NCBI RefSeq assembly: GCF_009914755.1
Contig: NC_060935.1
Length of the DNA stretch: 64,000 nucleotides
From: the human T2T-CHM13v2.0 reference genome, Homo sapiens
Direction: 5' to 3' (one strand)
In this document: piece by piece, positions 24,796 through 25,968 of the stretch
Numbering within the stretch: position 1 is the first letter of the stretch
How the letters are laid out: the number at the start of each line of letters is the position of its first letter
Notes under the pieces: model-generated
The model's input: only the letters and a program-made list of their open reading frames with translations
The model's database searches: none
What the model was told of the DNA's origin: nothing
Made by a program: the position numbers and the translations under genes

Positions 24796-25800
24796 TTAAG
24801 AGACACTGCCCTTCAGTTTAGCAGCAGGGGGGGTGGTAAGCAACACCTGATATAGTCCCTCCCAACAGGATCGGAGGGAATCTTCTATTTGATGGTGATT
24901 GTAATAAACAAAATCTTCAGGTTGGAGGCCATAATCTTTTATGTCTTCATCTCCAGGGAGCTTACTGCTAAAATAACCTTTAATTAATCTAGAATTTTTA
25001 GTGAGAGGCTTTATAAGACCTTGGCAATAATGAAGAAAATCAGCTGGGCACAATGGCTCATGCCTGTAATCTCAGCACTTTGGGATGCCAAGGCAGGAAG
25101 AACACTTGAGCCCAGGACCTCAAGACCAGCCTGGGCAACACAGTGAGACCCCATTTTCTACAAAGAATTTTTTAAAAAGTTAGCCGGGCATGGTGGCACG
25201 CACCTGTATTCCCAGCTACTTGGGAGGCTGAGGTGAGAGGATGCCTTGAGCTCAGGAGGTAGAGGCTGCAGTGAGCCCAGATAGTGCCACTCCACTCCAG
25301 CCTGGGAGACAGAGCAATACCCTGTGTCAAAAATAAAATAAAATAAAGAAAATCACCCTTAAGGAAAGCTAGTTTGTAGGCTTCTTCACTCAGGCGCATG
25401 GGTGAAGTAGAAAATTCCTGTACATTTTGCCAATTGATTTTTATTACCCTCTGTGCATTCCACCAGTTCAGAAGACCTAGGGTGATGTGTGTGTGTGTGT
25501 GTGTGTGTGTGTGTATATATATATATATGTATATGTGTATATAGATATATATATATGTATATATATATAACCAAAAAAAACTTTTGAGTAAACTGCAAAA
25601 GAAAAAAAGAAAGAAAAGAAAAGACCTAGGGTGGTACGCACAATGGAAATGCTGGAAAATCAGCCATGTGAACAAATAGACCAAAATAGACCAAATTATT
25701 TGACCAGTGAAATGGGTTCCTCAGTTGCTGTGAAGCACAGAAGGAACTCCCCAAGAAGGAAAAGGACAACACTTAAAATGGCCATGGTTAAAGATGCCAA
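24796..25800 (-). mobile_element. Degenerate class I ERV pol/integrase remnant (spacer plus left arm), interrupted by an Alu and a microsatellite insert
   Basis: The minus strand reads FPSWGVP..LHSN*GTHFTGQII...QHFHCAYHPRS|SELVEC...KNQLAK and [40 protein letters not shown]. These resemble gammaretroviral-like integrase core and C-terminal GPY/F motifs. Confidence 0.8.
25472..25633 (+). mobile_element. Short TSD-flanked insertion: (TG)n(TA)n microsatellite plus unique bit plus A-rich tail
   Basis: 13-bp direct repeat AAGACCTAGGGTG at 25472-25484 and 25621-25633. Removing the insert and one copy restores the integrase YHPRSSELVE reading. Confidence 0.75.
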
Positions 25801-25968
25801 TGATGAAGGAATTTGGTCAATTTGGTCATTTTCTTTTGTTTCTTTTTTTCTTTTGCAGTTTACTCAAAAGTTTTTTTTGGTTATATATATATACATATAT
25901 ATATATATCTATATACACATATACATATATATATATATACACACACACACACACACACACACACACAT

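What the first reader, a model, noticed from the sequence alone, without database searches (positions are those of the whole stretch)
25623..25828. The spacer appears flipped: inner and outer junctions name different arms as the original
Inner end: the spacer is ERV integrase on the minus strand (LHSN*GTHFTGQII...QHFHCAYHPRS) and runs on into the LEFT arm, where both TSD copies of the small insert survive. The right arm stops inside that insert's A tail. Outer end: the RIGHT arm continues into an intact LTR with its CTCT TSD (30450-31334) and host element, while the left copy of that LTR is cut after ~190 bp at 20669. A single inverted duplication would leave one arm continuous at both ends. 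The discordance is explained if a crossover between the arms inverted the centre. This predicts a toggling inversion visible only as spacer orientation.
Basis: partly seen in the sequence, partly recalled or inferred. Interest (0 to 1): 0.75.

Follow-up and report, generated by a model that had tools for sequence, protein, structure and literature searches.

The report
Known tiny flipping human inversion, HsInv0020
A 197-base stretch near INCENP sits between two 5-kb mirror-image repeats and is found in both orientations in people (catalogued as HsInv0020); it likely flips by recombination between the repeats and probably has no effect on a gene.

Summary
The feature is real and already catalogued. 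Arms 20669-25626 and 25824-30636 flank a 197-bp spacer. This is the polymorphic inversion HsInv0020: minor allele 0.18, CHM13 carries the major allele. The spacer is indeed reversed against the flanking endogenous-retrovirus relic: 5 of 5 paralogues holding both pieces show the opposite arrangement. The 'insert with TSD' is the split-off tail of a left-flank Alu pair plus native ERV sequence, and the right arm, not the left, joins the spacer natively. Junction discordance alone does not prove a crossover, because one inversion-with-duplication gives the same junctions. A crossover is still supported: a 165-bp arm-length marker lies on opposite sides in CHM13 and GRCh38 (inferred from published arm sizes), so the flip is not visible only in the spacer. 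Arm divergence falls 4.8%, 1.3%, 0.07% towards the centre, indicating gene conversion. Published extents of 282, 3,577 and 7,834 bp hint at several exchange points; I found no test of recurrence in print. No gene or annotated enhancer is moved.

The parts
19164..20078 (+). Left flank: ERV-interior relic in + sense, single copy at this locus; natively continued by the 25566-25621 / 25829-25884 piece
20079..20648 (+). Alu pair (second nested in the tail of the first); both have lost their downstream TSD copy to the rearrangement
20649..20668 (+). (TA)n remnant of the Alu tail; novel junction J1 at 20668/20669
20669..25626 (-). Left arm, 4958 bp, derived inverted copy; starts inside the LTR
20669..21920 (.). 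Outer stratum: 60 of 1245 aligned sites differ (4.8%)
21921..23889 (.). Middle stratum: 25 of 1968 differ (1.3%)
23890..24143 (-). Long allele of the arm marker: intact minus-strand Alu, tail-to-tail with the Alu at 23648-23900
24148..25612 (.). Inner stratum: 1 of 1465 differ (0.07%) plus one microsatellite indel
25485..25621 (+).
25627..25823 (-). Spacer, 197 bp, integrase-like ERV relic; the HsInv0020 inverted segment; CHM13 = O2
25824..30636 (+). Right arm, 4813 bp, ERV sense colinear with both flanks
27306..27398 (+). Short allele of the arm marker: most of the Alu deleted and replaced by a 53-nt patch copied from the Alu at 26860-26912 plus a short duplication; net 165 bp shorter
30450..31334 (+). 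Intact solo LTR with CTCT duplication, inside an older host element; right arm ends 187 bp into it

Best explanation
This is the catalogued human inversion polymorphism HsInv0020: a 197-bp spacer between 5-kb inverted repeats, found in both orientations, which likely flips by homologous recombination between the arms. Inferred history. (1) A break in the (TA)n tail of an Alu pair inside an old ERV relic was repaired by a template switch that copied about 4.8 kb of downstream DNA in reverse (junctions J1, J2); outer-arm divergence of 4.8% puts this at roughly 15-25 million years or more (rate recalled). (2) A templated repair copied 137 bp from one inner end to the other (J3, 4-nt microhomology), lengthening the arms and leaving a false TSD. 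(3) One arm lost most of an Alu and gained a locally templated patch, giving a 165-bp marker. (4) Arm-to-arm gene conversion, most frequent near the centre, produced the three strata (divergence shown; conversion inferred). (5) Crossover outcomes of the same recombination invert the centre. CHM13 carries the orientation opposite to the pre-duplication ERV order (shown from paralogues); GRCh38 by inference carries the colinear one. The exchange separating the two references lies outside the marker, so at least 3.5 kb of centre is turned. The flip is probably recurrent (about 60%) and probably neutral.
For: Coordinates, spacer size (197) and arm sizes match HsInv0020. Genotypes of 53 diploid samples: 35 O2/O2, 16 O1/O2, 1 O1/O1, 1 O2/Del; CHM13 O2 (counted). 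Independent T2T calls at window 25589-25870 and 24026-27601. Paralogues: 5 of 5 holding both left flank and spacer have them on opposite strands to the window's arrangement; 9 of 10 continue from spacer into arm sequence. Arm lengths left/right 4958/4813 in CHM13 versus 4796/4964 in GRCh38; an exchange inside the inner stratum predicts right-left = -151, outside the marker +137 to +179, published +168. Strata differ, chi2 p 2.5e-20; 71 differences expected in the inner stratum at the outer rate, 1 seen. The patch keeps two CpG where both arm copies of its source Alu have TpG.
Against: No GRCh38, pangenome or ape sequence could be read; the marker swap rests on published coordinates only. Strand-seq genotypes are nearly all low-confidence and two of three rows are flagged Mendelfail. 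The differing extents (282, 3,577, 7,834 bp) may reflect caller conventions rather than different crossovers. Arms of 5 kb are below the 10 kb or more seen for 23 of 32 recurrent inversions. Junctions cannot tell which orientation the duplication first produced. One paralogue (L006) shows arm pieces before the spacer, and 4 of 11 left-flank paralogues gave no hit to the A-rich piece.
Confidence: 0.85

Rival explanations
1. Born inverted: a single inversion-with-duplication (dupINV-type template switch) made the arms and the reversed centre at once; the ERV-colinear allele (O1) arose later by one or more crossovers. This changes the order of events, not the existence of the polymorphism.
For: Symbol bookkeeping shows that this product and the simple inverted insertion have the same two novel junctions and interconvert by one arm exchange. 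O2 is the major allele, 88 of 107 alleles. CNV-flanked inversions are a recognised class (PMC5338099, passages).
Against: Nothing in hand favours it over simple inverted insertion; allele frequency today says little after about 20 million years of exchange.
Confidence: 0.4
2. Single-origin polymorphism: only one crossover separates O1 from O2 in humans; later conversion and caller differences explain the different published extents.
For: Arms are short for a recurrent inversion; genotypes from Strand-seq are low-confidence; no recurrence test found.
Against: A 1.47-kb stratum at 99.9% identity only 197 bp apart, evidence of recent arm exchange, three different published extents and further deletions on both orientations.
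Confidence: 0.35
3. Replication template switching between the arms (quasi-palindrome correction) rather than break-induced recombination homogenises the arms and inverts the spacer.
For: Template switching is described as causing both arm homogenisation and spacer inversion (PMC8604942, abstract start in search listing); it predicts identity rising towards the centre, as seen; two templated patches occur at the locus.
Against: That work concerns short repeats; the exchange inferred here lies kilobases from the centre.
Confidence: 0.2
4. One reading: a small L1-mediated insert with a TSD predates the duplication, and the left arm is the original at the inner end.
For: A 13-bp direct duplication and an A-rich tract are present.
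Against: The A-rich tract and the 30 nt before it are in paralogous ERV copies, between the left-flank sequence and the spacer; the segment holds the missing TSD copies of the left-flank Alus.
Confidence: 0.03
5. Assembly artefact of CHM13.
For: Near-perfect palindromes are hard to assemble (recalled); Strand-seq rows flagged Mendelfail.
Against: Ultralong-read genotyping gives CHM13 = O2, genotyping success 1, and O2 in most samples.
Confidence: 0.01

Closest known systems
HsInv0020 (Moreira-Pinhal et al. 2026, PMC13629690, Suppl. Tables S1, S3, S4; seen: abstract, first part of text, passages, table rows)
   Same: Same locus: hg38 chr11:62,093,043-62,097,838 / 62,098,036-62,102,999, 197 bp, polymorphic, MAF 0.18, CHM13 = O2. 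It is the smallest of their 612 candidates.
   Different: The tables give no origin, ancestral orientation, strata, exchange point or recurrence; 'Experimental genotype data' is empty. Those points are added here by inference.
T2T/GRCh38 inversion calls: chr11:62,087,589-62,087,870 (PMC10150506, Table S1 row); chr11-62086026-INV-3577 and chr11-62094108-INV-7834 (PMC12350169, suppl. file 2 rows); seen: search listing and those rows only
   Same: Same centre; both orientations called.
   Different: Extents of 282, 3,577 and 7,834 bp; mostly low-confidence genotypes; treated as plain inversions.
Recurrent 'toggling' NAHR inversions (Porubsky et al., bioRxiv 10.1101/2021.12.20.472354; seen: passages and section 16)
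   Same: Inverted repeats of high identity around a common inversion.
   Different: Most have repeats of 10 kb or more; inversions with fewer than 10 internal SNPs were excluded from the recurrence test, which a 197-bp spacer would likely fail; 'chr11' does not occur in the main text, supplements closed.
Sex-chromosome palindromes with arm-to-arm conversion, spacer inversions and spacer deletions (PMC8327919, passages)
   Same: Conversion between arms, spacer inversion, centre deletions (one 1,310-bp deletion allele here).
   Different: Autosomal, 5-kb arms, gene-free, made of transposon relics; only the inner 1.5 kb exceeds 99%.
CNV-flanked inversions, dupINV / dupINVdup (PMC5338099, passages)
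   Same: One event can yield an inverted centre beside a duplicated flank.
   Different: Here the event is old and fixed; it cannot be told from an inverted insertion by junctions.

Membership tests
IR-mediated polymorphic inversion (HsInv0020) | Inverted repeats flank a unique segment at the catalogued place and size | tested here: met
   197-bp spacer, offsets 10,374 and 10,363 at the two outer ends
IR-mediated polymorphic inversion (HsInv0020) | Both orientations segregate in humans | tested here: met
   Read from the published table, not from reads: 18 O1, 88 O2, 1 Del of 107 alleles
IR-mediated polymorphic inversion (HsInv0020) | Breakpoints lie in homologous positions inside the repeats | tested here: met
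   GRCh38 call maps to about 21734 / 29578, mirror of 21734 is 29575; marker swap fits; coordinates only
Recurrent (toggling) inversion | Each orientation occurs on several independent flank haplotype clades | not testable with these tools
   No pangenome or ape sequence is held (no relatives)
Recurrent (toggling) inversion | More than one exchange point | tested here: inconclusive
   Three published extents may be caller conventions
   13 bp at 25472 and 25621
   A-rich tract is native ERV sequence and the segment derives from the same locus
Large palindrome with arm-to-arm conversion | Arms over 10 kb and over 99% identical | tested here: not met
   5-kb arms, 86 substitutions in 4678 sites; criterion from abstract start
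Large palindrome with arm-to-arm conversion | Gene conversion between arms | tested here: met
   Strata; shared TpG states postdating the one-arm patch; no outgroup to polarise
dupINV-type single event | Two novel junctions with the centre inverted from the start | tested here: inconclusive
   Same junction set as an inverted insertion
Retroviral integrase relic | Match to an integrase profile or structure | tested here: inconclusive
   No hit for 64- and 32-residue degenerate fragments; dispersed repeat at DNA level; motif resemblance recalled

The most novel reading that the evidence does not exclude
HsInv0020 toggles repeatedly at several exchange points spread over kilobases of arm, and the locus records each event: 86 arm-specific variants, a 165-bp marker and three conversion strata let the crossover point and conversion tract be read on every assembled haplotype. 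A gene-free 10-kb autosomal palindrome would then be a natural meter for intrachromatid recombination, in a size class that published recurrence tests filter out.
Probability: 0.55. Interest if true: 0.45.

Novelty: already known. Interest (0 to 1): 0.25.

Why it matters
The inversion itself is catalogued and moves no gene or annotated enhancer (the enhancer at 30712-31213 lies outside the arms; INCENP starts 26 kb away), so direct importance is low. The value is methodological. The locus shows that junction discordance cannot prove a later flip, that templated repair can fake a TSD, and that a '197-bp' inversion can in fact turn 3.5 kb or more. Its graded arms would let pangenome data test directly whether very small inversions between short repeats recur and where exchanges fall.

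Tried and rejected
Pfam and PDB sequence search did not name the integrase-like fragments. Full-text search for HsInv0020 found 0 papers; 'inversion + INCENP + inverted repeats + recurrent' found 1 unrelated paper. Supplements of the imputation paper PMC13504282 and the serial-SV paper PMC11393467 (4 files searched, 1 scan not searchable) hold no row for the locus. The Cell 2022 inversion paper and the 2017 HuRef-inversion paper are not held; bioRxiv supplements are closed, so a recurrence or ape result there could have been missed. File 2 of PMC12350169 was cut when stored. Two rows of the 2005 human-chimpanzee list (PMC1270012) fall where recalled old-assembly offsets place the arms; they suggest both arms exist in chimpanzee but do not give spacer orientation, so they were not used as support. 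Rejected: retro-insert reading, assembly artefact, and 'recent duplication of the inner part only' as a separate idea (it is equivalent to conversion).

Full report
Observation. Self-comparison shows two inverted arms, 20669-25626 and 25824-30636, around a 197-bp spacer. The outer-end claims hold: LTR 30450-31334 with CTCT on both sides, host element continuous across it in 3 of 7 paralogues examined, left copy cut after 187 bp. The word integrase is not backed by a library hit; it rests on recalled motifs.

Pre-duplication order. A genome search with the spacer listed 25 matches; I compared the 10 non-self loci it returned with the Alu-masked window. Five (L003, L004, L005, L007, L009) hold both left-flank sequence and spacer, and in all five they lie on opposite strands relative to the window's arrangement. 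Nine of ten continue from the spacer into arm sequence; L006 shows arm pieces before the spacer. A second search from the left flank gave 11 non-self loci, two of them repeats of L004 and L005. In 6 of 11 the A-rich piece at 25581-25621 follows the left flank in the same sense, 1 runs from left flank into right-arm sequence, and 4 gave no hit to the piece. The old order was therefore left flank, A-rich piece, reversed spacer, right arm.

The 'insert'. The 137-bp segment 25485-25621 is flanked by a 13-bp direct duplication, but it is not a retro-insertion. Its A-rich end is native in paralogues. It also holds the missing downstream TSD copies of the two Alus at 20079-20648 (20070 and 25582; 20355 and 25566), and the microsatellite before it matches the (TA)n stub at 20649-20668. 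So the first break fell in the Alu-tail microsatellite. The right arm joins the spacer natively; the novel inner join is on the left (25622/25623), with a 4-nt microhomology, which suggests a templated repair that lengthened the arms (inferred). There are three novel junctions: J1 20668/9, J2 25484/5 (mirrored at 25968/9), J3 25622/3.

What the junctions can and cannot show. Bookkeeping with block symbols shows that an inverted insertion and a single inversion-with-duplication have the same novel junctions and differ only by one arm exchange.

Known polymorphism. The locus is HsInv0020 in Suppl. Table S1 of PMC13629690: 197 bp, breakpoint blocks 4796 and 4964 bp, polymorphic. Table S3 gives MAF 0.18, GRCh38 = O1 (minor), CHM13 = O2; 35 O2/O2, 16 O1/O2, 1 O1/O1 and 1 O2/Del among 53 diploid samples. 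Table S4 lists deletions of 345-630 bp on both orientations and one 1,310-bp centre deletion. T2T-based calls sit at window 25589-25870 (PMC10150506, lowconf-Mendelfail) and 24026-27601 (PMC12350169: 46 ref, 15 het, 1 hom, nearly all low confidence). The GRCh38-based call of 7,834 bp (Mendelfail) maps to about 21734/29578, which are mirror points.

Evidence for a real crossover. In CHM13 the left arm is the long one (4958 vs 4813) because the right arm lost most of an Alu. In GRCh38 the published sizes are reversed (4796 vs 4964). An exchange inside the inner stratum predicts right minus left = -151; outside the marker +137 to +179; the published value is +168. The exchange between the two references thus lies outside 23890/27398 and turns at least 3.5 kb. 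This is an inference from coordinates; I could not read GRCh38.

Gene conversion. Arm divergence is 60 of 1245, 25 of 1968 and 1 of 1465 sites from outside in (chi2 p 2.5e-20); the stratum borders were chosen by eye from the alignment, so the p value is generous. At the outer rate 71 differences are expected in the inner stratum. Internal check: the right-arm deletion carries a 53-nt patch whose best source is the neighbouring Alu (2 mismatches; next best in the window far worse; top among 40 scored of 1,920 genome candidates). Both mismatches are CpG in the patch and TpG in both arm copies of the source, so those changes likely arose after the one-arm patch and then spread to both arms. Using recalled primate divergences, the strata correspond to roughly 15-25 million years, the human-chimpanzee split, and present-day polymorphism.

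Mechanism committed to. An old template-switch duplication created the arms; repeated intrachromatid recombination, likely starting near the AT-rich centre, converts the arms and sometimes crosses over, inverting the centre (confidence 0.85 for the whole; recurrence in humans about 0.6). Shown: anatomy, paralogue order, strata, published genotypes. Inferred: order of events, marker swap, conversion, dates, neutrality.

Comparison and novelty. It is the catalogued inversion, and works like NAHR toggling inversions and like sex-chromosome palindromes (PMC8327919, passages), but fails the size criterion of the latter. The recurrence study I could read excluded inversions with fewer than 10 internal SNPs. 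Searches found no account of origin, ancestral state or recurrence; closed or cut supplements may hold one. No gene or annotated enhancer lies in the arms (hub annotation). Verdict: already known; interest 0.25.

Noticed in passing
window 17165-18844: A second, diverged ERV-interior copy of the same family lies upstream of the left flank; in paralogues the matching sequence follows the A-rich piece. An older tandem or nested insertion.
   Followed up: partly
window 27306-27398: Deletion between tail-to-tail inverted Alus repaired with a locally templated 53-nt patch and a short tandem duplication; resembles polymerase-theta repair (recalled).
   Followed up: yes
window 25485-25570 and 25883-25968: (TG)n(TA)n tracts at both inner ends; (TA)n is a known cruciform former (recalled) and was the site of the first break.
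   Followed up: partly
centre, about 25040-26410: Published 1,310-bp centre-deletion allele is close to the span of the innermost inverted Alu pair; two rows of the 2005 chimpanzee list imply a centre about 1.2-1.35 kb shorter in the draft chimpanzee assembly (offsets recalled, may be an assembly gap).
   Followed up: no
window 3545-4203, 18864-19605, 23648-24200: Several closely spaced inverted Alu pairs.
   Followed up: no
window 30712-31213: The annotated enhancer lies in the part of the LTR that was not duplicated, just outside the right arm.
   Followed up: no
window 31942-32621 and 42453-42812: A diverged (67-82%) inverted pair of non-Alu repeats 10 kb apart.
   Followed up: no
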